From: a virus
Lineage: Duplodnaviria; Caudoviricetes
Virus record (IMG/VR): IMGVR_UViG_3300025697_000023
Span: 805 to 64,804 of that record
Reading direction: 5' to 3' (one strand)
Length of the DNA stretch: 64,000 nucleotides
In this document: piece after piece, positions 6 through 25,507 of the stretch
Layout of the letters: each line of letters starts with the position of its first letter
How positions within the stretch are numbered: position 1 is the first letter of the stretch
Position numbers and translations under genes: made by a program
The notes under the pieces: model-generated
Told to the model about the DNA's origin: nothing
The model's database searches: none
Seen by the model: the letters and a program-made list of their open reading frames with translations, nothing else

Positions 6-224
6 TCAGTCCAGTGGGCCTGGGATATCAGCGACTTCAATCAGCTTGAAGGTGTCACTGTCTTTGCGTGAGACAATGAGCTTCAAGGCTTTGGAACGTC
101 CGATATGTTCCGAGCAGATGAATCCTACTTGTTCTCCCTTGTAGAAAACCTCGAGATCTTCAGGACCGTTTGTTCGTTTACAACCATCAACAATACAAGT
201 ATCCATAGAGCCTCCTATGAGCAT
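6..224 (-). CDS. small hypothetical protein with Cys/His motifs (CIVDGC...CSEH)
   Basis: ORF directly downstream of RNR. True start may be MDTC (~207), which follows a GGAGG SD. Confidence 0.5.
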   Translation of the reverse strand: MLIGGSMDTCIVDGCKRTNGPEDLEVFYKGEQVGFICSEHIGRSKALKLIVSRKDSDTFKLIEVADIPGPLD

Positions 225-5402: not shown

Positions 5403-5773
5403 TGGCACTTCAACTAGATCTTAAACAAACAAATACTATTGAGCCTGGGCCGGTCTATAAGGTCCTGAATGAAATTACATATGCGGAGGATATTGCTGCT
5501 GAAGTTTTTGTGTTTACAACAGTTGATCAGGAGTTTAGTCATGTAGCCTCTGTTTGGGACCTGATGAATCTTCCTGTAGGACATGCAGCAGCGGTTATTG
5601 CGGGAACTGACCGGTATCGTAAAGATACCGCAGAAGTGGGTTACGCATCGGTAGACACTGCCATTGAATTCGCAGAGTATGTTCGTGTACGCATACAGGC
5701 ATTATTGAATGCCTATAAATCAGCAACCGAGGACTTTGAGGGAATAACCGACTACGTGTTTACCCCGAGTTAA
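5402..5773 (+). CDS. hypothetical (probably structural) protein
   Basis: TAATG-coupled ORF; shares a VFVF...F.xVA...DF.G pattern with its neighbours. Confidence 0.6.
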   Translation: MALQLDLKQTNTIEPGPVYKVLNEITYAEDIAAEVFVFTTVDQEFSHVASVWDLMNLPVGHAAAVIAGTDRYRKDTAEVGYASVDTAIEFAEYVRVRIQALLNAYKSATEDFEGITDYVFTPS

Positions 5774-5776
5774 ACT

Positions 5777-6991
5777 ATGGACAAAACCAGAATTGAACAA
5801 GACTCGATAGAAGTAACGTTAGCCGACGGGAAGACTGCCTTCCGAGTTACCACTACGGTTACTGACCCCGGAATTTTACCGGATACAGGTCTATTCGTTT
5901 TTACAATTGTTGATCCGTTAGAACCCAAGTCAGACACATTTATTCGTGTAGCTCAGCCACATGATATTAATTTTATGCTTCGTGATCGGGATAATGCTGT
6001 CGCAGCGGGAGATACGGAATTCTTATATCTTCAGGTCGCTATAAGCTATGAGTCTATTGAAGTAGCAGTACAAGCAAAAACCGCGATTAAATCTAGAATA
6101 GATGCAGCTATTAGTCGTTGGTATGTCTACCAGACTGAGTTTGTGGGCGTAGAAAATACTCTGCATCCTGGAGTAGACCCCGAGTATGAACAAGCCTTGA
6201 AGGCTGTATATGTTACTGCCCGAGATGCTCGAGTATTGGCAGAAACCGCGGTCGAAGACGCTGATGATGCTGTAGCTGCTGCTCAAGTTTTGTTGGAACA
6301 TGTGCAAGAAATTTCCGAAATTAGGAAGACTGAAACGGAGTTCTGTGCTGAAGTTAATACTACCTTGTGGCCTCAAGTTAAACTGGGGTGGACGGCCTTC
6401 AATGCGGGATCCGGAGCACTATATACGGCAAGCAAATCCTTTTGGACTTCTGCAAAAGCGTTTGATGATATTGCGGATCCTTTCTACAGTACTTCGAGTA
6501 CTTTTTGGACTAATTTAATTGTAGCGTATAATGCGTTTCCTACGGATCCTCCTGTTCCTGTTTATAACGGTCCCCCGGCGGCTCCTACAACAGATTGGTT
6601 AACTTTTTACAATGAGTTAAAGGGGTACGATGGGGTACCTGCAGCGTTTAACGCACTACTGACTACGTACGGTACCGCGGTTTCAACTTACGGCCCGCAT
6701 ACTTCTGCGGGTACTTCGTTAGCAGCGTTCCAAACGGTTTTAGATGCCTATACGTCAACGGCTACATTAATATCGTCAATGACTACAGCAATGGATACTT
6801 TCTATACTGCGGCAACCGTAGCATACAGTGCTGCGGTGGCCCAGGTAACACAAAAAGAAGCGGGAGTTACCACCGCTGTCAATGCAAAAAATGAGGCAGA
6901 AGCTGAGTTAGCTTCTGCCCAGGAAACGGAAGACGCGGCGTTGGCTGCTGTCGAAGAAATTTGTCCAGACTTCGAAACTACATCAGTTTAA
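5777..6991 (+). CDS. hypothetical protein with Ala/Thr-rich helical/coiled-coil C-terminus
   Basis: Long ORF; N-terminal domain resembles 5402..5773. Confidence 0.6.
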   Translation: MDKTRIEQDSIEVTLADGKTAFRVTTTVTDPGILPDTGLFVFTIVDPLEPKSDTFIRVAQPHDINFMLRDRDNAVAAGDTEFLYLQVAISYESIEVAVQAKTAIKSRIDAAISRWYVYQTEFVGVENTLHPGVDPEYEQALKAVYVTARDARVLAETAVEDADDAVAAAQVLLEHVQEISEIRKTETEFCAEVNTTLWPQVKLGWTAFNAGSGALYTASKSFWTSAKAFDDIADPFYSTSSTFWTNLIVAYNAFPTDPPVPVYNGPPAAPTTDWLTFYNELKGYDGVPAAFNALLTTYGTAVSTYGPHTSAGTSLAAFQTVLDAYTSTATLISSMTTAMDTFYTAATVAYSAAVAQVTQKEAGVTTAVNAKNEAEAELASAQETEDAALAAVEEICPDFETTSV

Positions 6992-8376
6992 TATCTTCTT
7001 AAAACATGTGGGTCTTTTTCTAAGTAAGTAAAATGTCCAAAATTACTATAAATATCCTGGATTGAATTAAGTGTCATATTAAACCCACACGCACCTCTGC
7101 CGTGGTAGCTGTAATTAATACGAAAACCCTGGAGATATGGTTCGATGTATAGAACAGGGTAAGAAGTAGAGTGCCAGGTACCAACGTAAGTAGGGCTGTA
7201 AACGTGACTTGTAGCTTCATAAAGAATAGCTAAACGTTCTGGAGTAAGAGGTGCAATATACTTTCCGTTCATGTCATTCCCATGCTTTAAAATAAATTCA
7301 TGAGCCTTTTTAAAGTCAGAAAAAAGGTTAATGTCGTTATGAGCACCGGGTTGGGTATTACGCCTAAGAGTAAAGTGTAGAGTATTATCACGCATGATTA
7401 AGGCGGTAGTAACTATACACCGGTTATAGCGTTTAGAGAGTGTTCCGGAGTTAGCTAGTAGGTAGCGTAGTTGAAATGCCGTAAAGGGATTGATTACTCC
7501 GTCATTAATTTTGGACACTATTTCTTTCTGGTCTTTGGGATAGGCTCCCCTACAGCTGCGTCGCGTACCATCTCCAAAAGTAGTACCACAAGTTTTTTGA
7601 ACTCCGCAATCAGTACAAACTTCTTTCTGAAAAGCTACATAACGTTTGCGTTCCTGTTGCGCTTCTGCGCGACAATCCGCAGCTTCTTGTATAGCAGTAA
7701 AGAAGTGTTCAGTGATACCTCTGACTCTTTGGTGTACTCCCGCTCCGCCAGTCATTGCTGGGCTGATATATACGAAATCATCAATCTTAGTGATCCCGTG
7801 TTTGAGTTCAAAGTCTTCAGCTAAGGAGTCAGGGGATATTCCGTTATTGATTACCGGGTTATTATACATATTAGACTTAGAATATGAGATCATTTGTTTC
7901 AGAATACAATTGTGTTCTGAGTCGGCCTGCTCGGGAGTATGGTTTGCTGTCGTGCACTCTTTACAAGACATGCTGTACTTTTGTGGCAGGTAACATTCGT
8001 CAAAAATTTGTTTAGTAGATACTGAGCCTATGTCTTTATCCTCTAACTTGAGACATATTTTTTCATGGTTTCCTGCGTCCATATTTTCCAAGACGTTTTG
8101 TATGTCCAAGTGAAAAATCCATTTAGGAATATCCTCAGATAGGTTTGAATATTGTTTTTTGGTATATGACGTAAACCTTACAAAGTAAGTATCTCCCATT
8201 ATTTTTTTTACAAGCGGGTGTTCGGCTAGTTTGTAAACTGTAGAGATATCTTTAAATTCTTTGTGTTGGGATGCATCCATACAGGCAAATATGATAGCGG
8301 GTGATTGATAGGTACTCCAGCGATTACTCGAAGTTGCGTAAGTAAACATAAGGGGGGTGTTGGCGTAATCAAGCAT
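6988..8376 (-). CDS. Cys-rich hypothetical protein downstream of RT
   Basis: 462 aa; start overlaps the RT stop; CKEC and CTDCGVQKTC...C motifs. Confidence 0.7.
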   Translation of the reverse strand: MLDYANTPLMFTYATSSNRWSTYQSPAIIFACMDASQHKEFKDISTVYKLAEHPLVKKIMGDTYFVRFTSYTKKQYSNLSEDIPKWIFHLDIQNVLENMDAGNHEKICLKLEDKDIGSVSTKQIFDECYLPQKYSMSCKECTTANHTPEQADSEHNCILKQMISYSKSNMYNNPVINNGISPDSLAEDFELKHGITKIDDFVYISPAMTGGAGVHQRVRGITEHFFTAIQEAADCRAEAQQERKRYVAFQKEVCTDCGVQKTCGTTFGDGTRRSCRGAYPKDQKEIVSKINDGVINPFTAFQLRYLLANSGTLSKRYNRCIVTTALIMRDNTLHFTLRRNTQPGAHNDINLFSDFKKAHEFILKHGNDMNGKYIAPLTPERLAILYEATSHVYSPTYVGTWHSTSYPVLYIEPYLQGFRINYSYHGRGACGFNMTLNSIQDIYSNFGHFTYLEKDPHVLRRY

Positions 8377-9529
8377 GTTTAACCTCTTCTTGAGCCTTCT
8401 TGCAGACCATCTCGTAGTCGCTAATGGCTACATCCAATTCTATTTTAAGACGGTCAGCTCGTTCCGGATTTAACTTTCCGATAACCTGATTAATATAGTT
8501 TACGTTTCCTCGAAGGTAATCAATGTACTGTTCTACTGTCGGGTATCCTGCCCGAGCATATTGGGTTTCAATCCCATGGGTTAATGAGTTGTGAACCATA
8601 GCTCGGAACAGAAGATATTTTTCACGCGGTATATTAGGTTTTTGATTGAAGACCATTCCTAGTAAAGTTTTACGATAGAAAGAATGTCCAACTCGGGTCT
8701 TCAGGGGGTTAATTCTATACTCCGCGGTTTGAATAATATCTGTGATACACCCACAAATTTCTTGAGATTCTTCCTTACTTATATTTACACCACAAGTGAA
8801 ACATAGATCATCAGAGTAGCGAGTATAGCGCCAGCACCAGACGTCTTTTAGGTTCATTTTTTTATCCAGGGTTTTTAAGTAACTGAGGATCTGATGATCT
8901 ATTCTGTCATCTGCAATAAGGTTACAGATAGCACCGGAGGTAGGGGCTCCTTGAGGAACTCCCGCGGATACTTGCGGTAGGTCATCTACAGTAAGAAGGC
9001 CTGCCAAGAGGCTCGCTGTATAGTGATTATAACCAGCATCTTTAAAATAGTTTCGAATCCAAGAGCGGTGGGTACTCCCAAAGAAATCCCGGAGGTCCAT
9101 TTGGATTACGGCACCTCTCCGGGGACACTCGTGTTTCTTGGGGGACACTCCTTTGGGAGTACCATCACAGGTTTTACAGGCAGGAATATGTTGTGCAACT
9201 GCATGCCGGGTAGACAGTCCTTTTCTATACGCAGTAACATGATCCCCCAATTGGCTCTGAAGAGGAATCAAGAACTTAGCGTGTACCCTGCGTAGGAACG
9301 ATTTCATAAAGGGTGAAGGAGCGTGAATAATCCGAAAACCCTTTCGTTTTTTAGGGATTCGGTGAACGGTATAGTGTTCGTCTTTCTGATTAAGTACCCA
9401 CCAGAGTGTTTTGGTTGCATACCCTAACCGGAAAGAAAGGCTACAATCATCCACGGCATAGGGAGTAACTTCGGGAATATTTGGTAATTCAATTCTAACT
9501 ACTGAGGTTTTGGCAAAGCCTATGGACAT
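8369..9529 (-). CDS. retron-type reverse transcriptase
   Basis: IPKK.KGFRIIHAP, AYRKG..T.HAVAQH (region X-like), MDLRDFFGS, VPQGAPTSGAICN, YTRYSDDLCF, INPLKT, LLGMVFN (region Y-like). Confidence 0.92.
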   Translation of the reverse strand: MSIGFAKTSVVRIELPNIPEVTPYAVDDCSLSFRLGYATKTLWWVLNQKDEHYTVHRIPKKRKGFRIIHAPSPFMKSFLRRVHAKFLIPLQSQLGDHVTAYRKGLSTRHAVAQHIPACKTCDGTPKGVSPKKHECPRRGAVIQMDLRDFFGSTHRSWIRNYFKDAGYNHYTASLLAGLLTVDDLPQVSAGVPQGAPTSGAICNLIADDRIDHQILSYLKTLDKKMNLKDVWCWRYTRYSDDLCFTCGVNISKEESQEICGCITDIIQTAEYRINPLKTRVGHSFYRKTLLGMVFNQKPNIPREKYLLFRAMVHNSLTHGIETQYARAGYPTVEQYIDYLRGNVNYINQVIGKLNPERADRLKIELDVAISDYEMVCKKAQEEVKHA

Positions 9530-10161
9530 CAGGTAACCTCCACTTCTTGCACTGATTTATCGTAAGCCTGTTTTAGATCCTTATCGAGAGGAAGCCGAGT
9601 CTTAGAATCATTACGACAGGTACTTGTTCCAGGTAAACATTGTCCAGCATAGTACTTCGGAAGATTCGCACAAATAGAACAGAGGAGAGGAATCTTGTCG
9701 TCAGGAGTTTGAATAGAAATAGGAGGTAACTTAATACCTGCGTTGGCGTTTACACCAACTACCTCAGACATGATGTAGCCTATTTCAGATATGTCAGGAA
9801 CTTTGTGACCCTTACGTGTCCGGGCTTTTACGTGGGTAGGAACAATCAGGAGCCAATCCTCAGGCCTTGAAATATTAAAACGTTTCTTATGGAAGAGAGT
9901 TGTGCCTTCAAATGCTAAATCATCGCGGCGTACTCGTACTGTCTTCTCACGCTCAACGTGTAAACAATTGAGCATTTTTGCGATTATTTCTGTGTAGTCC
10001 ATCACAAGATAATAGCGAAACAACTGCTGGATACGGGGCTCATCATTCCGGTGTGCGATGTACACATTATCATACGGGAAGTAATCGATATGTGTGTCGC
10101 GACTCCGGATACTGTGTTGAGCAATCTTTACGTGGTAAATATTCCCGGGGTAGAATTTCAT
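9529..10161 (-). CDS. hypothetical protein with C-terminal CxxC-x10-C-x6-C motif
   Basis: Stop overlaps the RT start (TGATG); CSICANLPKYYAGQCLPGTSTC. Confidence 0.7.
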   Translation of the reverse strand: MKFYPGNIYHVKIAQHSIRSRDTHIDYFPYDNVYIAHRNDEPRIQQLFRYYLVMDYTEIIAKMLNCLHVEREKTVRVRRDDLAFEGTTLFHKKRFNISRPEDWLLIVPTHVKARTRKGHKVPDISEIGYIMSEVVGVNANAGIKLPPISIQTPDDKIPLLCSICANLPKYYAGQCLPGTSTCRNDSKTRLPLDKDLKQAYDKSVQEVEVT

Positions 10162-10164
10162 ATC

Positions 10165-11754
10165 TTAGCTTTCGTGGATTTTAATGACCCTACTTCCCAT
10201 AGAGGGATGATCAGTGCCATTGGGGGTAAGTGCCCATATGAGAGGACACGCGGGGAGTAAGTCTGGAATGGGTCCGTGAGGCGAGTCGATAGGAGCTTCC
10301 CCGTCAGTAAACATAACTACCAGGTCTGGTTTAGGGAGTCTTATATCCAGTCCTTCTACATTTTTTTCCCAATCTTCTTCTGTGTCAACACCACAGATAC
10401 GTCGAAGAGGGGGGCAGAAGTCGGTGCCTCCACAACAATAGCGTTCTAGTCCGTGTTGTCCTGGGGATTGAATTTCATCATCTTCTCCAAATTCTTGTTC
10501 ATACTGAATAGCGGCATCAAAGATAATCAGATAGGCTTTTGCCATAGTATCCGCTTGAAGAATCCCCTGTATTTCCGACATGAATTTAAGATACTCGTCG
10601 TTGCTAACCGAACCCGAAGAATCCACACATATGTATATGTGAATTCCTACCTCTTTTTGAAGTCCCGGGTAAGGCTCTAAACCCTCTTCGAGTGACGGGA
10701 AGAGCGCAATGTTAGGCATCACGGTACTCTCCGTAAGCTTCGAGGATATAGAGGAGCGTAGCATCCCGCGGAATAGATGCTCCCAGGGAACTGTGGGAGG
10801 TGTTAGAAATTCTTCTAAATAGTGTTCCAATGCTGACGGGATCAGGCCTCGTTGTTTCCGCGTCTGGTCTAACGCCTGCTGTACGAGTTTTTTACCTTCC
10901 CGTTGGGCGTTATCAAGTGCTCGTTCCATCTCTGCTTCTGTTAGATCATTCCAGACTTCTGAGATGTCCAGGGGTGCATGCTGGCGTGCTAGTAGCCCCT
11001 TGAACCAATCTGGTAGCTTAGGATCCTGCATAGGGTCGTAGGAGCCATAGCCTGACTGAGGAGTTCCCTCGTCTTTTGGGGGACCTTTCTGAGGGTCACC
11101 TGACGCCTGGGACTGCTGCTCCTCTCCAGACTGTCCCTCTCCAGACTGTCCTTGTTCTCCAGGATCCTGTGGCGGGGCTTGGAGTTGCTTCTTGATATTT
11201 TCAACTATATCTTCGATGTCGTCTGGAGCCCATCCGTGGTCTCCCAGGTCCTGAAATAAGCGATGAGCATACTGCTCAAAGGTCTCACCCTTGGGGTAAT
11301 TACGTTCTTCCGGCAGAATCATAGACTTCATTTCATCCTGAAATATCTGGGATTTCTGCTCTACGAAGACCCTGAGAGCTGTGTCATTGACTGCCATATC
11401 TGCGGCCACATTCAATACCATGTGACGACGCTCGTAACGGTAGTCGTTGTTGACGATCTTCTGGAGACGTAGGAAGCGCCCCAAGTGGTTCAATGCCAGG
11501 TGGGCTCCCTCGTGAAAGAATACTAGAATTTGCTTGGCGCGGGGGAGACTCAAGAGCCATTTGGGATCATAGATAAAGACATTCCGTCCTGTTTTGCCAA
11601 TCATAACCCCTGCGGTTCCCAGGCCTTTTTGAGGGATAAACCGGCAACCGTTTAAAACACGACCCAGAAAGTTGTTGCCACCACGGATGCTGACGGCCCA
11701 TTGTAAATTTTCGCTGATGATAGTCTCATCTGTTGTTTCGATTAACGCTTCCAC
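10165..11754 (-). CDS. DUF2201-like metallopeptidase plus VWA domain protein
   Basis: HEGAH (HExxH), NVAADMAVND, acidic/Gln linker, MIDAS VDSSGS, GGTDF, FTDGE. GTG start with GAAGGAGG SD. Confidence 0.88.
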   Translation of the reverse strand: MEALIETTDETIISENLQWAVSIRGGNNFLGRVLNGCRFIPQKGLGTAGVMIGKTGRNVFIYDPKWLLSLPRAKQILVFFHEGAHLALNHLGRFLRLQKIVNNDYRYERRHMVLNVAADMAVNDTALRVFVEQKSQIFQDEMKSMILPEERNYPKGETFEQYAHRLFQDLGDHGWAPDDIEDIVENIKKQLQAPPQDPGEQGQSGEGQSGEEQQSQASGDPQKGPPKDEGTPQSGYGSYDPMQDPKLPDWFKGLLARQHAPLDISEVWNDLTEAEMERALDNAQREGKKLVQQALDQTRKQRGLIPSALEHYLEEFLTPPTVPWEHLFRGMLRSSISSKLTESTVMPNIALFPSLEEGLEPYPGLQKEVGIHIYICVDSSGSVSNDEYLKFMSEIQGILQADTMAKAYLIIFDAAIQYEQEFGEDDEIQSPGQHGLERYCCGGTDFCPPLRRICGVDTEEDWEKNVEGLDIRLPKPDLVVMFTDGEAPIDSPHGPIPDLLPACPLIWALTPNGTDHPSMGSRVIKIHES

Positions 11755-11795
11755 TGTAGCCTCCTTCGGACTATAATTCTCTCGAGGAGAAAAAC

Positions 11796-12788
11796 ATGAT
11801 TAAAGATCAAACAAATGACCCGGGGTTTGGAACTTTGTGTGCTGTAACCAAGCGATTTCCTGCCTTGAAGGAAATGGCCAAGACGGCGGAATTAGATACC
11901 AATGAATTTACGGATCTTCCCAATACCGCGTTCGCGTGGGAAACTCGCCGAAAATTTCCGATTCATAACCGGGAACATACTGCGATTTCTTTAGGGTACC
12001 GGAAGATTGCGAGTGCTATCCCAGCTGAGGTAGATGAGAAGCTAAAGAAAGCTGCGGAAGTCTATGGGGTTGATACTACGGTGTTTGATACCCCTGAAAT
12101 AGTTAAGACAGCTTCTGAAGAGTTCTTCCTCTTAGGTGGACGCTTTCGAGTAACCTCTGCAGAGGAAGTACCCTATGCAGAAAAAGCGTTGCTTAGAAAA
12201 TATGCTAGTCTTTCCCCTCAAGACAGGGCTGAAGCATTTGTTAACTTGGGAAAAGTAGCACAACATTTTGAGGTTCCATTACAACCTTCTACCCAAAAAC
12301 TCGCAGGATTTACGATTACGAGTACGCGGGTAATGAAGGACTGGGTAGAAGCTCGGAAGGTAGCTGCTGAGAGCCTTAAGTCTTCTGTAGCAGGCGCTTA
12401 CGAAAAATTGGCGCGTTCGTATGACGGGGCTGATGCCTATATCACGGATAAATCCGTGCAGGTAAAACTGGCTTCATTGATTGATGAGCTAGACCAGCAG
12501 TCGGGGGTTCAGCAGTATTACGGAAAGTCCCTATTAGATCCAATTCAGACCGTATTCAATACCGACAAGGTAGCTACCGGACAAGTTATGATTGGTAGCC
12601 TGATGCTCGATAAAGATAAGGTAGCAGCTCTCCCCTTGTCCTTCTGGGAAAGTTTACTGGGAGACGATATCGCAAAGGAAATTTCAACAGATGGAGAACC
12701 TGATATCGATAAGCTGATGCCTATTCTTCCTACCCTTCCTAAGGATTTAACTATCGTAGCGCAGAAACAACTCGCGCATCTTGCCTGA
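11796..12788 (+). CDS. putative head-associated protein, rich in K-x-A motifs
   Basis: DLPNTAFAW..RKFPIHNREH resembles a DUF6582-like motif; GAGGAG SD; many KxA(S/A) sites. Confidence 0.6.
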   Translation: MIKDQTNDPGFGTLCAVTKRFPALKEMAKTAELDTNEFTDLPNTAFAWETRRKFPIHNREHTAISLGYRKIASAIPAEVDEKLKKAAEVYGVDTTVFDTPEIVKTASEEFFLLGGRFRVTSAEEVPYAEKALLRKYASLSPQDRAEAFVNLGKVAQHFEVPLQPSTQKLAGFTITSTRVMKDWVEARKVAAESLKSSVAGAYEKLARSYDGADAYITDKSVQVKLASLIDELDQQSGVQQYYGKSLLDPIQTVFNTDKVATGQVMIGSLMLDKDKVAALPLSFWESLLGDDIAKEISTDGEPDIDKLMPILPTLPKDLTIVAQKQLAHLA

Positions 12789-13555
12789 TGATGGAACTCG
12801 ACTCACTAATAGAACTTGCGCCCAGGCTATCGACTCGATTTCTTGAAAAAACCGCAGCCATGATTCCTTATGCCCGAAAGGTTCTTCAAGAACCTGATGC
12901 GTGTTGTGCGACTGTCCTTTATTTAGCTGTCAGAACTTTGTTTGGCGTTCAGGTTACAGCCTGGGAACCTGAAACTATTTGGTTAACTTTAGAACGGCAG
13001 GAAAATATTGAGTTGGACGAGCTAGCCCGGGACAAGATTCAGGCAGCTATTACGCTAGTTGTTAATCCTTCTTTCTACTGGGATAGCTATGTGTTCCAGA
13101 GGACCGCTCAGGCACTTAACGGGGAACCCTTCGATGCTTACGCGCTGCAAGAAATCCCCCCTCCAGTTCAATGTTGGGCTGTTTACGAAGCCGGTATTAT
13201 CCGGGGGTTAGACCTGGATGTTCCTGTTATCCCTGATTACGACGAAGACGTACAAAGCTATACCGCGGTATGTCTCCATAGAGACGGGATGGTACTTCCC
13301 CCAGATCAGCTCATGTATTCTAGAGCTGCTCTTAAGAACCTCTATCCTAAAAACACGCAAGAGTTTGCAGCCACTGTTATGAAGTCCTGGTCACAAGTAA
13401 AAAAAGAGGACCTCCAGAAACGTAAGTTTCCGGAAGATCCTCTGGGGGTCCAACTTTCATATTTGGCGGGCTGCAAACTCTACGTAGATGAGCGGGCAGA
13501 AGCACTAGCTAAGGACATTACCTTGGTTTCGGTACGGTCTTCCAGTCCTGCATAA
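12788..13555 (+). CDS. hypothetical protein
   Basis: TGATG-coupled 255-aa ORF; EKTAA near the N-terminus. Confidence 0.65.
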   Translation: MMELDSLIELAPRLSTRFLEKTAAMIPYARKVLQEPDACCATVLYLAVRTLFGVQVTAWEPETIWLTLERQENIELDELARDKIQAAITLVVNPSFYWDSYVFQRTAQALNGEPFDAYALQEIPPPVQCWAVYEAGIIRGLDLDVPVIPDYDEDVQSYTAVCLHRDGMVLPPDQLMYSRAALKNLYPKNTQEFAATVMKSWSQVKKEDLQKRKFPEDPLGVQLSYLAGCKLYVDERAEALAKDITLVSVRSSSPA

Positions 13556-14774
13556 GATCATTGTCGACATTCCGGGTATTTTTATCCAACTGTTTATGTA
13601 TTTCTCGCCAACCAGGAAAGTCGGCCATTTCATACATCAGTTCAGTCAGGTAGTCTCCCGCGTTATTGTCTTCGGCCATCTGGTTAAGACCCGTATGGAT
13701 CTGCATAAGAACTTCTGCAGGAAGGTCTCCCAGGAAGGTAACGAAGTTTTTGGCTACCTTGTCAACACTGGTTTTCTTCGCAAATAGAATTGTAAGAACA
13801 CCTTGACCAAGGTCCAGTAATTTGGTGCGGTCTTTCTTGATCAGTTTTTTCACTGCAGTTCGTGTCTTCCCCTTATATGCCCGTAATACTTCTTCCGGCT
13901 TTACTGTCAAAGTAGAGTCCGTGAGAAAATCTATAAGTTGTTTTGTTACAGTCATACCTACGGAAGCTGCGTAACGTGTTTCTGCGAAAGGACCAATGAT
14001 ACTTACATTATTCTTTTCCATTAAGTAAGTATCGAGAGAGATAGTCTGTATTGTTGCGGGACACATATACTGCTTGTTCACACGTTGTGCTGCCATGTCA
14101 TAGATGAGTTTGGGGAACGTTTCTATGAACGACAGGATACTCGGGTGGCAGGGCAGCGACTTACCTAGAGCATCCCTATCACTGAAGTGGAAGATATCGG
14201 ATTTGGCGTGAGGGTACCAGGATTGGAAAGACGGGATACAGTACAACCACTTGAGTCTACGGCGAAGTGCCGCGTTCGTTTCGATCTGTGTAACACTGTA
14301 TTTGTCCGTGGCGGGATTCATCATACCCACGACCATACAATCTTTCGGTAGTAGATAGTCGAACATTCTCCGGTCTTCGATCAGCGAAAAGAACATCGAG
14401 ATTGCGTGGGGTAGTCCCTGGTTTAGTTCGTCAAAAACCACCATGGCTTTTTCTCCGCCTTCGGGAAAGTTCTCTGGTAGCAGCGTTTTGAAAAATCCGA
14501 TTTTTGCTTCTTTTGTAGAAGGGATCCCCGCCCCCATCAACCCGTAGTGGGCCGTACGGATGTCACATACCCTGGCGCCCACCTCGTGCGCTACCTGATG
14601 AACTACTTGGCTCTTGCCCATTCCGGCTTCTCCGACAAGCATGAAAGCCCCCCGCCACTGCTTAGCATTCCAAGAAAGTAAGATCTGTTCTTTTGCGCCT
14701 GCCATAGTTACCTGCGGGATGTCATGTAGCTGAGCATACTTGAGTTCTTCTTCGTTCTTTTTTCCTTTTGTCAT
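13518..14774 (-). CDS. MoxR-like AAA+ ATPase (usual partner of DUF2201/VWA proteins)
   Basis: Walker A GEAGMGKS, Walker B VVFDELN, sensor MMNP, arginine finger AALRRR. Confidence 0.88.
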   Translation of the reverse strand: MTKGKKNEEELKYAQLHDIPQVTMAGAKEQILLSWNAKQWRGAFMLVGEAGMGKSQVVHQVAHEVGARVCDIRTAHYGLMGAGIPSTKEAKIGFFKTLLPENFPEGGEKAMVVFDELNQGLPHAISMFFSLIEDRRMFDYLLPKDCMVVGMMNPATDKYSVTQIETNAALRRRLKWLYCIPSFQSWYPHAKSDIFHFSDRDALGKSLPCHPSILSFIETFPKLIYDMAAQRVNKQYMCPATIQTISLDTYLMEKNNVSIIGPFAETRYAASVGMTVTKQLIDFLTDSTLTVKPEEVLRAYKGKTRTAVKKLIKKDRTKLLDLGQGVLTILFAKKTSVDKVAKNFVTFLGDLPAEVLMQIHTGLNQMAEDNNAGDYLTELMYEMADFPGWREIHKQLDKNTRNVDNDLMQDWKTVPKPR

Positions 14775-14803
14775 ACTGCTCCTCGTCTGTTACTGTTGGT
14801 TAG

Positions 14804-16423
14804 ATGTCTACAATACCTAAAAAACCATTATCAATCATTGCTGAAAGATGGTTGTTACTCGACGGTAAACCCTTTAGCTTACGTGATTGGCCTATGCACC
14901 GCGCTTTCTACGATGGGCGATACCCCCGTATGCTTATGAAAACTGCGCGACAAGTTGCTAAGAGTACCACCCTATCTAATTTTAGTATTATTGAATGTGC
15001 AGTTCTTCCTCATTTTCGTACAATGTTTGTTAGCCCTTCTAAAGAACAGACTGTGCGTTTTTCAAATGCTCGGGTCTCTAAAACTATGTCTTATTCTCCT
15101 ATTATTAAGGAGGGGTTTCTACACCCTGATTTATCGTATCGTATGGGACATAAGCAATTCCGTAACGGGGCTGAGATGTACTTTACGTACGCTTGTGACG
15201 ACCCCGACCGTTTGCGTGGAATTTCATCGGATAGAAATCTAATGGATGAGGTTCAGGACATGTTGTACGATCCTGTAATCATCGTAGGTAATGAGTGTAT
15301 GTCTGAATCCAATTATGGATACGAGACCTATGCTGGTACCCCAAAAACCATGGAAAATACGATTCAGTATCTGTGGGAAATGTCGACGCAGACTGAATGG
15401 GTAATGAAGTGTGAATCTTGTGGTTGCTCCCAGTATATCGATGACGAAAAATCTGTAGGAAAACTAGGTCCAATTTGTGTTAAGTGTGGCTCGTATCTCA
15501 ATCCTTTTAAGGGTCAGTGGATAGACCTTTCTCCCCCGGACCCCACTAAATATCCCGACCCTAAACAGAAGCTAAAAGGGTTTCATATCTCACAGCTTAT
15601 TATGCCGAAGAATGTGCCTGAGGCAATGAAGCACCGAGGAGGAGTTGACTACGAGAGAGCGGTTAAACGTTGGCATCGTATTCTACGGAAACATATAGAA
15701 AGTCCTCCCTCGTTATTCCGCAATGAAGTCCTGGGAGTTTCCGATGCTATTGGTACCCGTATGATTTCTCTGGAGGAACTCCAATCTCTTTGTGTGGGAG
15801 TTTCACTACAGGAAAAGCCTAAATCGGGACACTTTGTAGGAGTTAGAAGTGCTGTCGCGGGGGTTGACTGGTCTGGAGGAGGCGCGTCAGGACTCTCGAG
15901 AACAGTTCTTTGGATCTGGGGACACCGCGCAGACGACCAAAAACTCGTGTGTCTTTATTACAAGGTATACCCGGGAAAAAACCCTGTGCATGCCGTTGAT
16001 GAAGTTGCCGCTACATGTCAGGCGTATAACGTACGCATGGTAGTAGGGGACGCAGGAGAAGGTGCAGTAGCTAACGGACTTTTAAAGCGGGCCCTAGATG
16101 CTCACCGGGTACAACAAGTACAGTACGGAAGTCATGCGAGGGCTCTTAAGTGGAACGGGGAAGACCGGTACATAGGAGATAGAACAACGTTAATCGATAA
16201 TTATTTTATGGAACTTAAGCAAGGACACATGGAATTTGGGCCGGAAGAACAAATGAAAATGGCTATAGAAGATATCCTTAACGAGTATGAAGAAGTAACA
16301 CAGCACGGTAAAAAAGTATGGAGACACTCACCTCAAAAACCAGATGACTGCCTCCATGCTGGATTGTTTGGCTGGATTGCTTACAAGATCTCTATCGGAG
16401 ATCTTAAATTTTACCAGCATTAG
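14804..16423 (+). CDS. terL: terminase large subunit (lambda gpA-like)
   Basis: KTARQVAKST, LRGISSD..LMDEVQD, AGTPK, Zn motifs CESC/CVKC, nuclease GVDWSGG, VGDAGEG, PDDCLHA. Confidence 0.88.
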   Translation: MSTIPKKPLSIIAERWLLLDGKPFSLRDWPMHRAFYDGRYPRMLMKTARQVAKSTTLSNFSIIECAVLPHFRTMFVSPSKEQTVRFSNARVSKTMSYSPIIKEGFLHPDLSYRMGHKQFRNGAEMYFTYACDDPDRLRGISSDRNLMDEVQDMLYDPVIIVGNECMSESNYGYETYAGTPKTMENTIQYLWEMSTQTEWVMKCESCGCSQYIDDEKSVGKLGPICVKCGSYLNPFKGQWIDLSPPDPTKYPDPKQKLKGFHISQLIMPKNVPEAMKHRGGVDYERAVKRWHRILRKHIESPPSLFRNEVLGVSDAIGTRMISLEELQSLCVGVSLQEKPKSGHFVGVRSAVAGVDWSGGGASGLSRTVLWIWGHRADDQKLVCLYYKVYPGKNPVHAVDEVAATCQAYNVRMVVGDAGEGAVANGLLKRALDAHRVQQVQYGSHARALKWNGEDRYIGDRTTLIDNYFMELKQGHMEFGPEEQMKMAIEDILNEYEEVTQHGKKVWRHSPQKPDDCLHAGLFGWIAYKISIGDLKFYQH

Positions 16424-16441
16424 TATACCGCTTAGCGTATA

Positions 16442-16680
16442 GGACAAGAACCTCGCGGGACTGATGCACCCCAAGCGCTGTCAGCGCAGGGGATCATCAG
16501 ATTTCGGAGGGCTATGGCGCCCGGAGAAATTCTTGACCGGTAGCTGTATGCATAGTTAAGAGCATAAATCAGGATGTAACATCCTATTGCTTCTAGGGAC
16601 TAGAAACATTCCGGTATGTACCGCTATGTGTCGGTTTCTAAGAATGACATCTTAGAAACCAAACTACCGTGCTGTGTTGT
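16442..16680 (-). ncRNA. putative structured non-coding RNA of unknown family
   Basis: Largest intergenic gap in the window, with at least seven stems; several extend by G-U pairs only in the minus orientation; preceded by GGTATAAG. Confidence 0.6.
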
Positions 16681-16683
16681 AGA

Positions 16684-16701
16684 CTTATACCGCTAACTAG
16701 C
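16684..16701 (-). promoter_or_regulatory. candidate promoter GCTAGTTAgcGGTATAAG
   Basis: Near-identical to GCAAGCTAttGGTATAAG at 35307-35324; both lie directly upstream of small minus-strand units. Confidence 0.45.
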
Positions 16702-19700
16702 GGCTATTTCTTTTTCAAAATCGGCGCGTATAGCCTGTTCAAGGTACGCATCAGGATCTAATTTTTCAATGTTATTTTTGTTCATGTAGTCGTAGATATC
16801 AATTACTTCTCCGTAAGAGGGTCCTACTTCTACATCCCATTGAAACGGAACAGGTAGCCAGGGGTGGCGAGTTGCAACTCTAGTTTGTCCGTATTCCTTT
16901 ACGAAGTCCGGAATTTGAGAGACATACTTTTTAGGTATCTCAGCTACTATCGAATCATGTACCGTAATGAGCAGATGTCCTCCGAAGTCATGTCGGATAG
17001 GTTCAGCCATTTCACACAGTACCTCGAGTACTAGATCTGAGGATGTACTTTGAATCTTAAAGTTAATTGCCTGCCGGTTTGCTTTGCTGCGCCCATAGGG
17101 GGTTAATCCTAGCATTTCAAACCTACGACGACGTCCCAAGAAGGTCTCTACTACACCAATATTTCGTACCTGATCTTTTGTGATACGCACATACTCAGGT
17201 ATTGATGGAAACATTTTCTCGAGTGCATCAATAATCGTTTGTGCCTGTTCCAACGAGATCCCTACAATTTGCGCAATTTTGTATTTACTGGCGCCGTATA
17301 AAATTCCGAAGACCACGCGCTTAATTGTTTTCCGAAGTTTTTCTAACTGTCTCGCATACCAGGGATCCGTATCCTTGAAATTATTTCGGTTATTAAAGTC
17401 GTCGTAACTCCAACCGTGGTCTTCATCGATACCTATGAGGTTCATCACAGCTTTTCGTGATGCGTATTGTACCTCTGCCAGGATGGTCTCAGGTTTAAAG
17501 ATCATGCCCGCGAAGAATGAGTGGGGATCCATACCGTCATTCAGGGCTTTAATTAAGTTCTTATCCTTACTATAGGCCGCGTAGATTCTAACCTCTGCTG
17601 CCTTAGCGTCTGCGTTACAGATCACCTGACTCTCGGGGTCAGTAGGAATAAAACTCTTTTTGATGTTATGTTGCCCGATTTGATAGGGGACATTTTGCAT
17701 GTTTTCGTCTGATGATGAATTGTGGTTTACAAAACCTTGCGCAACGAAAGAATGATCATAAGCTACTTCGATATCCCAAACGCCTTTTATTCCGATACTT
17801 CGGATAGACTTGATTCGGCTAGTACCAAATTTATTTGAACGGTATTTATCGCGTATACGGCGCTGACGATTACAGGTAGTAACTTCAGAACCAATATCTA
17901 ATTCTTTAAGGCGGTGGATTACTAAAGGACCGTAAATTGATCCAGGTTCTGAAGGAGTGTAAAAACCATGGTTTTTTGTAACTTCAATTGAGGATCCGTT
18001 CTCAAGTGTAACACAATACATTTCTTCATCACCCTTGCAGAACAACTTAACGATATTACGTAATCTATTTTTGTGAGTCCTAATAGATACCGAAGGTATT
18101 AGATCCAAGGGTAGTTTTGAAATTACAAAAGATCCCTTGTCTGTGTCAAGAATAGTATTCTCGGAAACACAAAGACGAAAAGTAGCAGTGCCGTGTTGGT
18201 GGAAGTTCGTATGCATACGTCCGTCTTCTTCACTCAGGGCTTTGATATTGGCCACGAAGGTTGTCAGAGCCTTGTGTGTTGCTCGGTACCGCAGGATAGC
18301 ACGGGATAGGGGACAGTCATGCTGTGTAGCGAGTGAGCGTAAGAACTGAGCGTTAGTAGATGCTAAGCCTGTCTCCGTTCGAGGCGGTTCTATAACGCCG
18401 CTGTAGCATACTATTTTACCTGTTTCAGGATGTTTGAAACCTGTGCCATATAGGAGTTTACGTACGTCAGCAGCACTAGAAGGATTGAATTTAATGTTCT
18501 CTGGAACCATTGGCAGCATCTCAGCACGAGATTGCACGATAGATAGTTCCATCTTAACGGCTAATTCGTCTACGTAATCCCGGTCAACCTTTACACCGTA
18601 AAGCTCCATTTCCGCCAAGACACGAGTCGTAGGGATTACTCGTCCAAACATATTAGCTGAAGTAGGGTCTCGCATAGAACAGCCAGGCTGTGCTAGGTGC
18701 TTAAAGTAGGCGTTATGCGCCCACTGGCCTCTACGCTTTGCCAGCGCAGTGTTCTCTTGCTCAGCTCTTTCCCGCTGTAGACCTACTATCTGCCTTGTAA
18801 CATCGCCATCGATAGCTCCATACAGGTTAAGGTCGTCCAACGGTATTTTCAAAAAGCCCTCGGTAGCAGCATCTTTGGCTAACTTTTTGGCGGCTCCTTT
18901 AAGCTTTTTCTTTTTCTCGGCCGTTTGTTTTGCATCCGCGATCTGTGAATCGCCTTCGGTGGCTGTAAGAATAGCTTGGAGGGTATCTTCATACCCGGAG
19001 TAAGCCGGGAGCATAATATTTGTAAGATCTTTTAGGCCGTAAAAACCTTTCTTATCTTCAACTAAAAGATGTTCTCCAAGCATGGTATCCCAACCGATTC
19101 GTCTGATATCCCAACCCTTGCTTTTAAGAACTTTTAAATCAAATTTTGCATTCTGCAAAACCTTAGGCTTTGGACTAGAAAGTATCCGTTGTATCAGCGG
19201 AGCGACTTGTTCAAATGTCCAAGGAGTATCGGGGTGTTCAATTGGTATGGATGTGGAATAGCCTGTAGCCCAAGAAACTATCAGACTCAAGAGTTTCAAG
19301 TTTTTTCTGTGGGGATACTTAGTGTTCGTTTCAGTATCTAGAGAGATTATCCAGTTATCTGGATTCACATCATTTTCGGTATATGCGAGAATATGATCGA
19401 CTAATTTTTCTACCTCTTTAAGAGTCTTGGGAAAAACATAGTTCTTTGCAAGGACGTCAAGGGTAGGCGTCATCTGGATTGCTTTACCTTTGCCTACATC
19501 TACTACTCCGGAGAGGAACAAATCCATATGATTTTTAAACAAGTCAAAGTAACCTGTTTTGGCTGCAAGTTGTTGCTTTGACATGGACACATAGATATAT
19601 ACTTTACGCCCCTGGAGGGTAGTAGTTACAAAATGTTCTTGTGTTGCCGAGTATTTTCTAAATTTGATACCCAAGGATTTTAGAACACTATCGCCCATTG

Positions 19701-25410: not shown

Positions 25411-25507
25411 TGTGATTTCTCCTGTTTGTTGAAGGACCCTCAGGGTAAGACAATTCAATTACATTGTCCATCGATATGTGTTAAAAAGAACTATAAGGAG
25501 GCTGAAA

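What the first reader, a model, noticed from the sequence alone, without database searches (positions are those of the whole stretch)
6988..16701. Candidate new phage RT system: structured ncRNA, MoxR AAA, VWA-peptidase and Cys-rich proteins around a retron-like RT
Seen: ignoring the interleaved plus-strand genes (terL and 11796-13555), the minus strand reads promoter-like motif, ~240-nt structured element, AAA ATPase, HExxH-VWA protein, 210-aa Cys protein, RT, 462-aa Cys protein. The last four genes abut or overlap (3-nt gap, TGATG, 8-nt overlap), so there is no room for a msr-msd RNA next to the RT. Known: retron RTs need a cognate ncRNA and usually sit beside it and an effector; MoxR/VWA pairs act as chaperones or remodelers. 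Inference: a phage-encoded retron-like complex whose RNA is displaced by ~7 kb, with novel partners instead of known effectors. It could serve anti-defence, phage-phage competition or cDNA production. Caveat: AAA/DUF2201 pairs are common in phages without RT.
Basis: partly seen in the sequence, partly recalled or inferred. Interest (0 to 1): 0.85.

Follow-up and report, generated by a model that had tools for sequence, protein, structure and literature searches.

The report
Phage retron-like RT three-gene cassette
A large group of uncultured ~180-kb phages carries a retron-type reverse transcriptase locked between two zinc-binding proteins of unknown fold, while the neighbouring ATPase/VWA genes and the folded RNA 7 kb away do not travel with it.

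Summary
The system boundaries are different.

**The unit.** It is a three-gene cassette on the minus strand:
- a 210-aa Cys4 protein (9529-10161)
- a retron-clade RT (8369-9529)
- a 462-aa protein with two Cys4 clusters (6988-8376)

All 51 viral loci with RT at 32% identity or more keep the 210-aa gene directly upstream of the RT. The 462-aa gene follows in 43 of 51; 5 of the 8 misses are contig ends.

**ATPase/VWA.** One sister lineage (4 distinct loci) keeps the AAA, VWA, terL and all other neighbours but lacks all three cassette genes. The MoxR-like AAA and DUF2201-VWA pair is therefore not RT-specific.

**Intergenic element (16424-16692).**
- It is strongly structured (z -6).
- It holds a two-hairpin core with covariation.
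- 7 of 35 RT-positive loci have 10 nt or less at that site.
- Six near-complete RT-positive genomes lack the core.

A retron msr-msd role is unsupported.

**Novelty.** Both partner proteins give confident models with no structural or family match. The RT active site is invariant. This is a new variant of retron-like systems; its template and function are unknown.

The parts
9529..10161 (-). Cassette gene 1. A 210-aa protein with an invariant C-terminal Cys4 motif (C161, C164, C175, C182) and an acidic tail. Its stop overlaps the RT start (TGATG).
   Evidence: ORF. (26-sequence alignment, invariant Cys). (found directly upstream of the RT in 51 of 51 loci). (AF2 pLDDT 87.0, pTM 0.83). (0 PDB matches at E<=0.001). 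(no Pfam, PHROG, PADLOC or NCBIfam family).
8369..9529 (-). Cassette gene 2. A 386-aa retron-clade reverse transcriptase with YSDD, a conserved N-terminal extension (DD at 27-28) and a CxxC...HxC insert (C118, C121, H133, C135) before motif A.
   Evidence: RVT_1. (PADLOC RT_XIII 162 bits, RT_other 155, RT_outgroup 154.8). (retron St85/Ec67 models, below their cut-offs). (PDB profile: retron Ec67 9e-26, Ec86 9e-23, group II intron RT 2e-8). (D145, Y238 and D240 in 43 of 43 RTs, D241 in 42 of 43; insert in 28 of 43).
6988..8376 (-). Cassette gene 3. A 462-aa protein with two Cys4 clusters (C128/C138/C141/C157 and C254/C257/C263/C275). It overlaps the RT stop by 8 nt.
   Evidence: (27-sequence alignment). 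(downstream of the RT in 43 of 51 loci). (AF2 pLDDT 86.2, pTM 0.74). (0 PDB and 0 BFVD matches at E<=0.001). (no shared PADLOC family in 27 members). (368 representative clusters, all stand-alone).
6894..6920 (-). Terminator-like hairpin (11-bp stem plus T-run) about 70 nt after the stop of the 462-aa gene. Likely end of the VWA-to-462-aa transcript.
   Evidence: consensus scan only; function not shown.
10165..11754 (-). Context, not RT-specific. A 529-aa DUF2201_N (HEGAH) plus DUF2201 VWA-like protein. It heads the run of four minus-strand genes.
   Evidence: Kept in RT-less relatives. Homologues occur in many RT-less cultured phages.
13518..14774 (-). Context, not RT-specific. A 418-aa AAA_5 (MoxR-like) ATPase, in a separate transcription unit.
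   Evidence: Kept in RT-less relatives.
11796..13555 (+). Context. Two conserved plus-strand genes (330 aa and 255 aa) of no known family, lying between the VWA and AAA genes.
   Evidence: Present in 51 of 51 RT-positive loci and in the RT-less loci.
14804..16423 (+). Context. Large terminase subunit (GpA type).
16424..16692 (-). Structured intergenic element between the convergent stops of polA and terL. It has a terminal stem (16686-16696 with 16432-16441), a 13-bp hairpin (16633-16660), the conserved two-hairpin core (16566-16622) and a 97-nt composite hairpin (16442-16538). It is real but is not shown to belong to the RT cassette.
   Evidence: No Rfam family.
16566..16622 (-). Conserved core of the element: UGYYGGA, then a variable hairpin A, then hairpin B (a 5-7-bp stem closed by G-C around a UUA loop; here AGGAUG-UUA-CAUCCU).
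   Evidence: 34 covariance-model matches, all in the terL-polA gap and all on the polA/RT strand. (94.2% of cells paired, 9 of 11 pairs changed on both sides, 0 of 500 shuffles as high). (alignment view).
16693..20148 (-). Context. Family A DNA polymerase with an intein. The structured element lies in its 3' flank on the same strand.

Best explanation
What is there is a self-contained three-gene module, 210-aa Zn protein / retron-clade RT / 462-aa two-Zn-cluster protein. It is translationally coupled and appended to the 3' end of the DUF2201-VWA operon of a large tailed phage.

Shown:
- The three genes are gained or lost as one block.
- They have been inherited vertically across a deep phage clade: terL identity falls to 46% and RT identity to 32%, and complete genomes are 170-188 kb.
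- The polymerase active site is invariant.
- Both partners are confident, compact folds with no known relative, and they evolve faster than the RT.
- The AAA/VWA pair and the folded polA-terL spacer are distributed independently of the module.

Inferred:
- The three proteins form a zinc-dependent complex in which the RT is an active polymerase.
- As in retrons, it copies a dedicated RNA into cDNA, but that RNA is not encoded beside it and is not yet identified.
- The two partners take the place of retron effector or sensor proteins.
- One lineage dropped the module cleanly while keeping every neighbour, and other genes occupy the same slot there. The module is therefore most likely a long-retained accessory for phage-host or phage-phage conflict (counter-defence or exclusion), not part of the replication or packaging machinery.
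For: Unit and co-occurrence.
- tblastn shows the same gene order in 51 of 51 viral loci with RT >=32% identity. None of the block is present in the 29 loci with RT at 24-27%.
- A profile search finds the 210-aa gene directly upstream of the RT in 51 of 51 loci and the 462-aa gene directly downstream in 43 of 51. Of the 8 misses, 5 are contig ends and 3 gave no hit.
- RT-less relatives L144, L150, L151/L153 and L152/L155 keep AAA, p255, p330, VWA and p404 but lack all three cassette genes. In L144 the p404 and VWA genes are 50 nt apart.
- RT and 462-aa profiles find nothing in 0 of 5 RT-less records (13-85% complete). They find one adjacent copy of each in 5 of 5 near-complete RT-positive genomes.
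- On a quick terL tree the 4 RT-less rows, with one row of unknown status, form one clade with support 100.

RT identity and activity.
- Retron models and retron structures are by far the best matches.
- D145, Y238 and D240 are present in 43 of 43 distinct RTs and D241 in 42 of 43.

Partners.
- AF2 pLDDT is 86-87 for both.
- There are 0 Foldseek matches at E<=0.001 and no family hits.
- Median pairwise identity is 0.20 and 0.18 for the partners, against 0.37 for the RT and 0.28 for the VWA protein.

Restriction to this clade.
- Among 185,579 species genomes, only two contigs exceed 30% RT identity. One of them is the same phage contig as L014.
- The 462-aa family has 368 representative clusters, and every listed one is stand-alone.
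Against: - No cDNA, template or protein contact has been seen.
- Retention over such deep divergence is unusual for accessory conflict genes and would also fit a life-cycle role.
- The RT-less records are incomplete (the best is 85%), so relocation of the RT cannot be fully excluded.
- 3 of 51 loci (L033, L045, L047) have room after the RT but gave no hit to the 462-aa profile.
- The CxxC...HxC insert is missing from 15 of 43 RTs, so the zinc sites are not all essential to the module.
- Rooting of the terL tree is by midpoint only and the careful tree search did not finish. Loss versus gain of the cassette is not decided.
Confidence: 0.6

Rival explanations
1. The structured polA-terL spacer (16424-16692) is the RT's cognate msr-msd-like RNA, displaced by 7 kb, and the RT makes msDNA from it.
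For: - The element is strongly structured.
- It has a terminal stem enclosing short hairpins followed by one long hairpin, which resembles the a2-msr-msd-a1 layout (retron layout recalled, not from a call).
- All 34 covariance-model matches lie on the RT/polA strand, and the core has covariation.
- No match was found in the RT-less loci or records.
Against: - 7 of 35 RT-positive loci have <=10 nt between polA and terL.
- L111 and L113 are 97% identical in their flanks but differ by a 315-nt indel at this site.
- The core is absent, or scores no better than E 0.57 and then elsewhere, in 6 near-complete RT-positive genomes.
- Only 9 of those 35 RT-positive loci, plus the window, have a model match.
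- Spacer length runs from -4 to 2651 nt with unrelated content.
- No Rfam family, including retron msr, matches.
- The closest relative's spacer is not significantly structured overall (z -1.95).
Confidence: 0.12
2. The whole minus-strand set (AAA, VWA-peptidase, 210-aa protein, RT, 462-aa protein) is one functional system.
For: - The gene order is conserved in 51 of 51 RT-positive loci.
- The VWA gene heads the same run of genes as the cassette, with a 3-nt gap.
Against: - The RT-less clade keeps AAA, VWA, p255 and p330 intact.
- DUF2201-VWA homologues occur in 45 cultured phage records.
- The AAA gene is separated from the rest by two plus-strand genes.
- The synteny extends equally to terL, polA and p404, so it reflects a conserved phage backbone.
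Confidence: 0.05
3. The cassette serves the phage life cycle itself, for example primer or end synthesis for replication, or a step coupled to packaging, and is not a conflict accessory.
For: - Vertical inheritance across the clade, with a single copy per genome.
- Position between the replication genes (polA, primase) and terL.
- An invariant active site.
Against: - It was lost or never gained as a clean block in one lineage that keeps all replication and packaging neighbours.
- The partner proteins evolve faster than the backbone genes.
- The nearest cultured terL relatives (Salmonella phage Arash, Vibrio phage D181) gave no RT match.
Confidence: 0.12
4. The RT does not use a dedicated ncRNA at all. 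It polymerises DNA without a template or by protein priming, as AbiK-type enzymes do (recalled), or it copies an mRNA.
For: - No intergenic room for an RNA gene anywhere around the cassette.
- L020 has no gap of >=120 nt in 16 kb by a greedy ORF cover.
- No strongly structured stretch lies inside the cassette; the lowest z there is -3.1 to -3.3.
Against: - By sequence the RT belongs with retron RTs, all of which studied so far copy an ncRNA (the biochemistry is recalled).
- Matches to UG/DRT models are weak: Drt2 8.5e-07, DRT1 structure 2.5e-4.
- An RNA gene could overlap coding sequence or lie elsewhere in the ~180-kb genome.
Confidence: 0.1

Closest known systems
Type XIII retrons (RT clade 10 of Mestre et al. 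2020, PMC7736814; passages read)
   Same: - Best-scoring PADLOC RT model.
- The nearest cellular RTs (27-28% identity) are genuine type XIII RTs.
- A multi-gene system that includes a zinc-finger partner.
- A vertical mode of inheritance is reported for type XIII in that paper.
   Different: - The window RT scores 162 bits on RT_XIII against 470-520 bits for genuine members, and it nearly ties with RT_other and RT_outgroup.
- The partners are not HEAT-ARM, SWIM or WGR proteins.
- There is no contiguous ncRNA.
- It is encoded by a phage, not a bacterial chromosome.
Classical retrons (Ec86, Ec67; solved structures)
   Same: - The RT fold family gives the best PDB matches, 9e-26 and 9e-23.
- YxDD catalytic motif.
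- RT plus accessory-protein organisation.
   Different: - No adjacent msr-msd.
- Extra N-terminal extension, and a CxxC...HxC insert in 28 of 43 RTs.
- Partners of unknown fold.
- No msDNA evidence.
UG27 RT systems of gut phage families (Mestre et al. 2022, PMC9226505; passages read)
   Same: An RT conserved across whole phage families together with two associated protein clusters. This is the clearest precedent found for a phage-lineage RT module.
   Different: - UG27 belongs to the UG/Abi lineage and has a predicted ncRNA in the intergenic space next to the RT.
- This RT is retron-clade and has no such space.
- No UG27 model was available, so the comparison was not tested.
Diversity-generating retroelements of phages
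   Same: A phage-encoded RT of similar size.
   Different: - No template/variable repeat pair in the 64-kb window.
- No Avd-like gene.
- The RT matches retron models, not DGR models.
Phage MoxR-like AAA plus DUF2201 zincin-VWA pairs (phrog_1297 / phrog_1314)
   Same: The window's AAA and VWA proteins are members of these families.
   Different: They are widespread in phages without an RT and persist in RT-less relatives. They are neighbours of the module, not components of it.

Membership tests
Retron | RT belongs to the retron RT lineage | tested here: met
   - The 25 PADLOC families shown, of 57 matched, are all retron RT models, the best at 5.5e-48.
- PDB profile search: 12 retron RT sequences rank above the first non-retron hit.
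- The NCBIfam retron models score below their curated cut-offs.
Retron | Contiguous msr-msd ncRNA gene with flanking inverted repeats beside the RT | tested here: not met
   - The genes abut or overlap on both sides of the RT.
- There is no Rfam match in the window.
- The only structured spacer lies 7 kb away and does not co-occur with the RT.
Retron | Production of msDNA primed from a 2'-OH of a conserved G | not testable with these tools
   Needs biochemistry. No RNA run holds the stretch.
Retron | Associated effector protein(s) co-evolving with the RT | tested here: inconclusive
   - The two partner genes are constant.
- Identity correlations with the RT are 0.40 and 0.67. The backbone genes VWA (0.74) and p404 (0.70) correlate as well or better, so this reflects shared descent.
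- An effector activity is unknown.
Type XIII retron | RT scores as RT_XIII at family level | tested here: not met
   162 bits against 470.8 and 520.7 bits for RTs with type XIII neighbours.
Type XIII retron | WH-SWIM and HEAT/ARM partner proteins | tested here: not met
   0 PADLOC families for either partner. No shared family among the 27 members of the 462-aa family.
Diversity-generating retroelement | Template repeat / variable repeat pair and a target gene | tested here: not met
   No direct repeat of >=30 nt involves the RT region, other than chance-level 31-nt pairs at 71-74% identity.
Group II intron | Maturase-type RT inside a ribozyme | tested here: not met
   TIGR04416 scores 49.8 bits against a cut-off of 300. 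No intron RNA family is found in the window.
UG27 phage RT system | UG27 RT with clusters 337/346 and an adjacent ncRNA | not tested
   No UG27 model is on hand. The Drt2 and Drt3a models match only weakly.
MoxR AAA / VWA pair | AAA_5-type ATPase with a VWA-domain partner | tested here: met
   AAA_5 6.4e-07; DUF2201_N plus DUF2201. The pair is independent of the RT.

The most novel reading that the evidence does not exclude
A retron-derived RT has been kept for a very long time by a clade of ~180-kb environmental phages. There it works with two zinc proteins of new fold and without an adjacent msr-msd.

In the boldest form, the hairpin-plus-motif units in the polA 3' flank are its templates. 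These units are variable hairpins, each followed by a short conserved AGC-containing tail, and number up to 9 in tandem in L102. The phage would then make a set of small hairpin cDNAs during infection, for example as decoys against host nucleic-acid-sensing defences.
Probability: 0.1. Interest if true: 0.9.

Novelty: new variant of a known kind. Interest (0 to 1): 0.6.

Why it matters
Retrons are known as bacterial anti-phage systems built from an RT, an adjacent ncRNA and an effector. Here the same RT lineage sits on the phage side. It is inherited vertically as a near-core module, has lost the adjacent RNA gene, and is bound to two proteins that match nothing known.

If the module makes cDNA, it would be a new way for a virulent dsDNA phage to use reverse transcription. 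It would also be a source of compact RT/partner sets with unexplored template rules.

The work redraws the system boundary to three genes, not five genes plus an RNA. That makes a clean expression experiment possible.

Separately, the polA-terL spacer holds a conserved small structured motif and hairpin arrays. These matched no Rfam family in the two Rfam searches that covered them.

Tried and rejected
- **DGR reading.** No TR/VR repeats.
- **Known RNA families and tRNAs.** None at Rfam gathering thresholds, none by ARAGORN, and only chance-level microRNA and snoRNA hits at E 0.9-6.5 in 16300-16800. None in L102.
- **Nucleotide search of the region against cultured phages.** No match.
- **Sequence search of the window spacer against 80 loci.** Only short chance-level hits.
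- **Structured RNA hidden inside the cassette's coding sequence.** The sliding z-score scan found nothing below -3.3 there.
- **ESM Atlas for both partners.** No usable hit.
- **Foldseek (PDB, BFVD) for the partners.** Nothing at E<=0.001.
- **PADLOC on 27 members of the 462-aa family.** Five different families, each matched by one member only.
- **Pfam on the ORFs that occupy the slot in RT-less loci.** Nothing above cut-offs.
- **terL neighbours in Salmonella phage Arash and Vibrio phage D181.** No homologue of the block in the stretches fetched.
- **Regex scan for the GUUAC hairpin.** It gave hits on the terL strand in some lineages (L014, L009, L046). Background was high, 31 hits against 16 in shuffles, and the covariance model did not confirm them, so I do not rely on them.
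- **RNAalifold on the model-fitted alignment A10.** It predicted no pairs because of the gappy hairpin A columns. The pair counts rest on a model-fitted alignment and lean towards the structure.
- **Sequencing runs.** No RNA holder is listed. Laid contigs of four DNA runs showed no indel in 6900-16800 and add nothing on expression or cDNA.
- **Tree.** The careful tree search did not finish, so the quick tree was used.
- **Literature.** Searches for phage retron RT with terminase, DUF2201 with phage RT, retron-like RT in viral genomes, and 'phage-encoded reverse transcriptase' with retron found no description of this module. Supplements are closed, so the clade tables in Mestre et al. 2020 and 2022 could not be checked for these RTs.

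Full report
**Observation**

On the minus strand lie:
- a 529-aa gene (10165-11754)
- a 210-aa gene (9529-10161)
- a 386-aa gene (8369-9529)
- a 462-aa gene (6988-8376)

They are separated by a 3-nt gap, a one-base stop/start overlap (TGATG) and an 8-nt overlap. Two plus-strand genes (11796-12788, 12788-13555), a minus-strand 418-aa gene (13518-14774) and plus-strand terL (14804-16423) follow.

Family matches:
- Pfam gives RVT_1 for the 386-aa protein, DUF2201_N plus DUF2201 for the 529-aa protein, AAA_5 for the 418-aa protein and GpA terminase for terL. PHROGs agrees.
- The 529-aa protein contains HEGAH. The RT contains YSDD.
- The 210-aa and 462-aa proteins match nothing in Pfam, PHROGs, PADLOC or NCBIfam.

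The 269-nt spacer 16424-16692 lies between the convergent stop codons of terL and a family A DNA polymerase (16693-20148). It folds with z -6.0 on the minus strand and -5.0 on the plus strand. It is the most structured stretch of 5600-17100. Promoter-like sites in the region are at chance level, 16 against 16.8 expected.

**What the RT is**

Retron models dominate:
- PADLOC: RT_XIII 5.5e-48 (162 bits), RT_other 155 bits, RT_outgroup 154.8 bits, RT_III-A 151.8 bits.
- NCBIfam: retron St85, Ec67 and TIR models at 1e-31 to 5e-37, all below their cut-offs. Group II intron maturase reaches only 2.6e-13.
- A 23-sequence profile against PDB chains ranks retron Ec67 (9e-26) and Ec86 (9e-23) first. Group II RT scores 2e-8 and DRT1 scores 2.5e-4.

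There are no DGR-type repeats.

The nearest cellular RTs, found in a scan of one genome for each of 185,579 species, are at most 30% identical. The two I examined (L204, L198) are genuine type XIII retron RTs, scoring 470.8 and 520.7 bits on RT_XIII. L204 has a HEAT-ARM_XIII neighbour and L198 a SWIM_XIII neighbour.

The window RT scores a third of that and has different partners. It is therefore a separate lineage of the retron clade, not a type XIII member.

Only two 'cellular' contigs exceed 30% identity. One (L191, 44%) has the same length and coordinates as viral contig L014 and was binned into an archaeal MAG. The other is a 2-kb contig.

**The real unit**

An RT profile found 99 relatives in IMG/VR and the best 80 were kept.
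- All 51 loci with RT identity >=32% show the same order: polA, terL, AAA, p255, p330, VWA, 210-aa gene, RT, 462-aa gene, p404.
- The 29 loci at 24-27% identity show none of these genes.

Because the two partners diverge fast, I used iterative profiles over all ORFs of the loci.
- The 210-aa family lies directly upstream of the RT in 51 of 51 loci.
- The 462-aa family lies directly downstream in 43 of 51. Of the 8 misses, 5 loci end at a contig edge just after the RT. L033, L045 and L047 have room but gave no hit.

Anchoring on terL instead (295 relatives, best 80 kept) brought in relatives without the RT. L144, L150, L151/L153 and L152/L155 keep AAA, p255, p330, VWA and p404 but lack all three cassette genes. 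In L144 the p404 and VWA genes are 50 nt apart. Other unannotatable ORFs occupy the slot in L150-L152.

Whole-record searches confirm the pattern:
- RT and 462-aa profiles hit 0 of 5 RT-less records (13-85% complete).
- They hit exactly one adjacent copy of each in 5 of 5 near-complete RT-positive genomes.

On a quick terL tree of 65 distinct rows (32 RT-positive, 4 RT-negative, 29 undetermined because the contigs are short), the RT-negative rows form a single clade with support 100. One event therefore explains the pattern. The midpoint root does not decide between loss and gain.

The near-complete genomes I searched (95-100% by CheckV) are 170-188 kb, and one has direct terminal repeats.

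The AAA/VWA pair stays when the RT cassette is absent. DUF2201-VWA homologues are found in 45 cultured phage records, whereas the RT matches only 8 records.

**The cassette proteins**

- The RT active site is invariant: D145, Y238 and D240 in 43 of 43 distinct RTs, and D241 in 42 of 43.
- The RT has a conserved N-terminal extension. In 28 of 43 RTs it also has a CxxC...HxC insert before motif A.
- The 210-aa family has four invariant cysteines near its C-terminus, followed by an acidic tail.
- The 462-aa family has two four-cysteine clusters.
- AlphaFold2 with these alignments gives confident models: pLDDT 87.0 / pTM 0.83 and pLDDT 86.2 / pTM 0.74.
- Foldseek finds no match at E<=0.001 in the PDB for either protein, nor in BFVD for the larger one.
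- A profile of the 462-aa family finds 368 representative clusters among 1.84 billion. All 150 listed are stand-alone proteins of 237-562 aa.
- The partners evolve fastest in the block. Median pairwise identity is 0.20 and 0.18, against 0.37 for the RT, 0.28 for VWA and 0.27 for p404.
- A terminator-like hairpin follows the 462-aa gene (6894-6920).

**The structured spacer**

It is real, but it is not tied to the RT.
- The polA-terL distance ranges from -4 to 2651 nt.
- Among the 35 RT-positive terL-anchored loci where both genes were found (duplicates included), 7 have 10 nt or less.
- L111 and L113 are 97% identical in their flanks but differ by a 315-nt insertion at this site. That insertion is not found elsewhere in the 97%-complete L113 genome.
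- Spacer sequences are mostly unrelated between lineages.

Within the window's own lineage (W, L083, L163, L084) the flanking genes are about 80% identical but the spacer barely aligns. The exception is a core: UGYYGGA, a variable hairpin, and a hairpin closed by G-C around a UUA loop.

A covariance model of this core found 34 matches in 100 sources (1.6 Mb). All lie in the polA-terL spacer and all are on the polA/RT strand. 94% of cells are paired, 9 of 11 pairs changed on both sides, and 0 of 500 shuffles reach this. The alignment is model-fitted, which favours the structure.

The refined model finds no match in G001, G009, G010 and G011. In G008 and G012 it finds only matches at E 0.57-0.83. 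The three full-length ones lie more than 20 kb from the RT and so outside the polA-terL spacer; the fourth covers only model positions 36-52 of 57. The model finds nothing in the RT-less records (RT positions).

Only 9 of the 35 RT-positive loci, plus the window, carry the core. It is a subclade feature of the polA 3' flank.

Its function is open. Candidates are an RNA stability or termination element, a small RNA, or a strand-specific DNA signal next to the packaging gene. A retron-like template role remains possible only for that subclade, and I give it about 0.12.

**Mechanism**

Shown:
- a three-gene unit that is present or absent as a block
- vertical descent
- an intact polymerase site
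- two compact zinc-type partners of unknown fold
- independence from the AAA/VWA pair and from the spacer

Inferred:
- The three proteins act together. The evidence is overlapping stops and starts and constant adjacency. The binding test was not possible.
- The RT copies an RNA that is not encoded beside it.
- The module is a long-retained accessory for conflict with hosts or rival phages. It is dispensable in one lineage, its slot is reused there, and its partners evolve fast.
- A life-cycle role (about 0.12) and template-independent synthesis (about 0.1) are not excluded.

**Known systems and literature**

The closest families are type XIII retrons (Mestre et al. 2020, PMC7736814; passages read) and classical retrons. 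The closest precedent in organisation is the UG27 RT of gut phage families, which has two associated clusters and a predicted adjacent ncRNA (PMC9226505; passages read).

Four literature searches found no description of this module. Supplementary tables that might list these RTs were closed.

**Habitat**

Near-identical DNA is held by runs labelled salt lake metagenome from several studies. Two of those samples may be the source of this DNA. Contigs of four other such runs (X3, X4, X5, X7) were laid and cover the stretch, most of the laid pieces at 99% identity or more. No RNA holder is listed.

**Verdict**

What remains is a well-delimited, conserved, phage-borne retron-like RT cassette with two novel partners and an unknown template. 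It is a new variant of a known kind.

Noticed in passing
L102:11590-12745 (polA-terL spacer); also spacers of L092-L096, L099, L118/L119/L122, L142, L143/L147, L160: Tandem arrays of units. Each unit is a different imperfect hairpin of about 50-75 nt followed by a short conserved single-stranded tail. In L102 there are 9 units ending in AAGACAGCAGUGCC. In the window's lineage there are 2-4 units ending in (C)ACnnAGCGGYAU. The motif differs by lineage but shares AGC(A/G)G. No Rfam match in L102.
   Followed up: partly
L111:11606-11920 versus L113:11605-11607: Two phages are 97% identical in the flanks but differ by a 315-nt insertion between terL and polA. The insertion looks like it carries small ORFs. 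The polA-terL junction is an indel hotspot (-4 to 2651 nt across relatives).
   Followed up: partly
window 16686-16696 with 16432-16441, and the same ends in L083, L163, L084: The terminal stem of the spacer pairs the stop-codon region of polA with that of terL. In 3 of 4 relatives both genes use the same stop codon (TAG/TAG, TAA/TAA, TGA/TGA), and in the fourth (TGA/TAA) the pairing is kept by a wobble. Four sequences only, so this may be chance.
   Followed up: no
window 16693-20148 and 215-3850: The DNA polymerase A carries an intein (Intein_splicing, residues 688-810). The class II ribonucleotide reductase carries a LAGLIDADG insert (residues 543-625).
   Followed up: no
window 57412-57627: Nine or more tandem copies of an 18-nt unit (GTAGAAGAGCCTCCGGTA) inside a plus-strand ORF, that is a six-residue peptide repeat.
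   Followed up: no
L191 (same 78,677-nt contig as L014) and L192: Phage contigs of this clade are filed in public genome bins labelled Archaeoglobales and Bathyarchaeia. The window phage encodes a sigma-70-type factor (25478-26530), RuvC and ParB, which points to a bacterial host, so the bins are probably contaminated. The host is unknown.
   Followed up: no
L151:4228-5379 and L152:3961-5139 (minus strand of those loci): In the RT-less lineage, the slot after the VWA gene holds a conserved 383-392-aa ORF of no known family, plus a small Cys-containing ORF.
   Followed up: partly
window 13360-13519: Second most structured spot of the region (z -4.5), with a terminator-like hairpin at 13411-13436 on the minus strand. 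It lies about 80 nt downstream of the AAA gene's stop (13518), inside the 3' part of the plus-strand p255 gene.
   Followed up: no
window 14804-16423 (terL): Four cysteines (C203, C206, C225, C228) are invariant in 22 terL sequences of the clade, suggesting a zinc ribbon inside the terminase. Cys4 sites recur in many proteins of these phages.
   Followed up: no
G001:C1:156106-156124 (L113 lineage): An 8-bp hairpin with the same G-UUA-C loop lies in the divergent region upstream of the VWA operon in a genome that has no polA-terL spacer. No equivalent is seen at window 11755-11795.
   Followed up: partly
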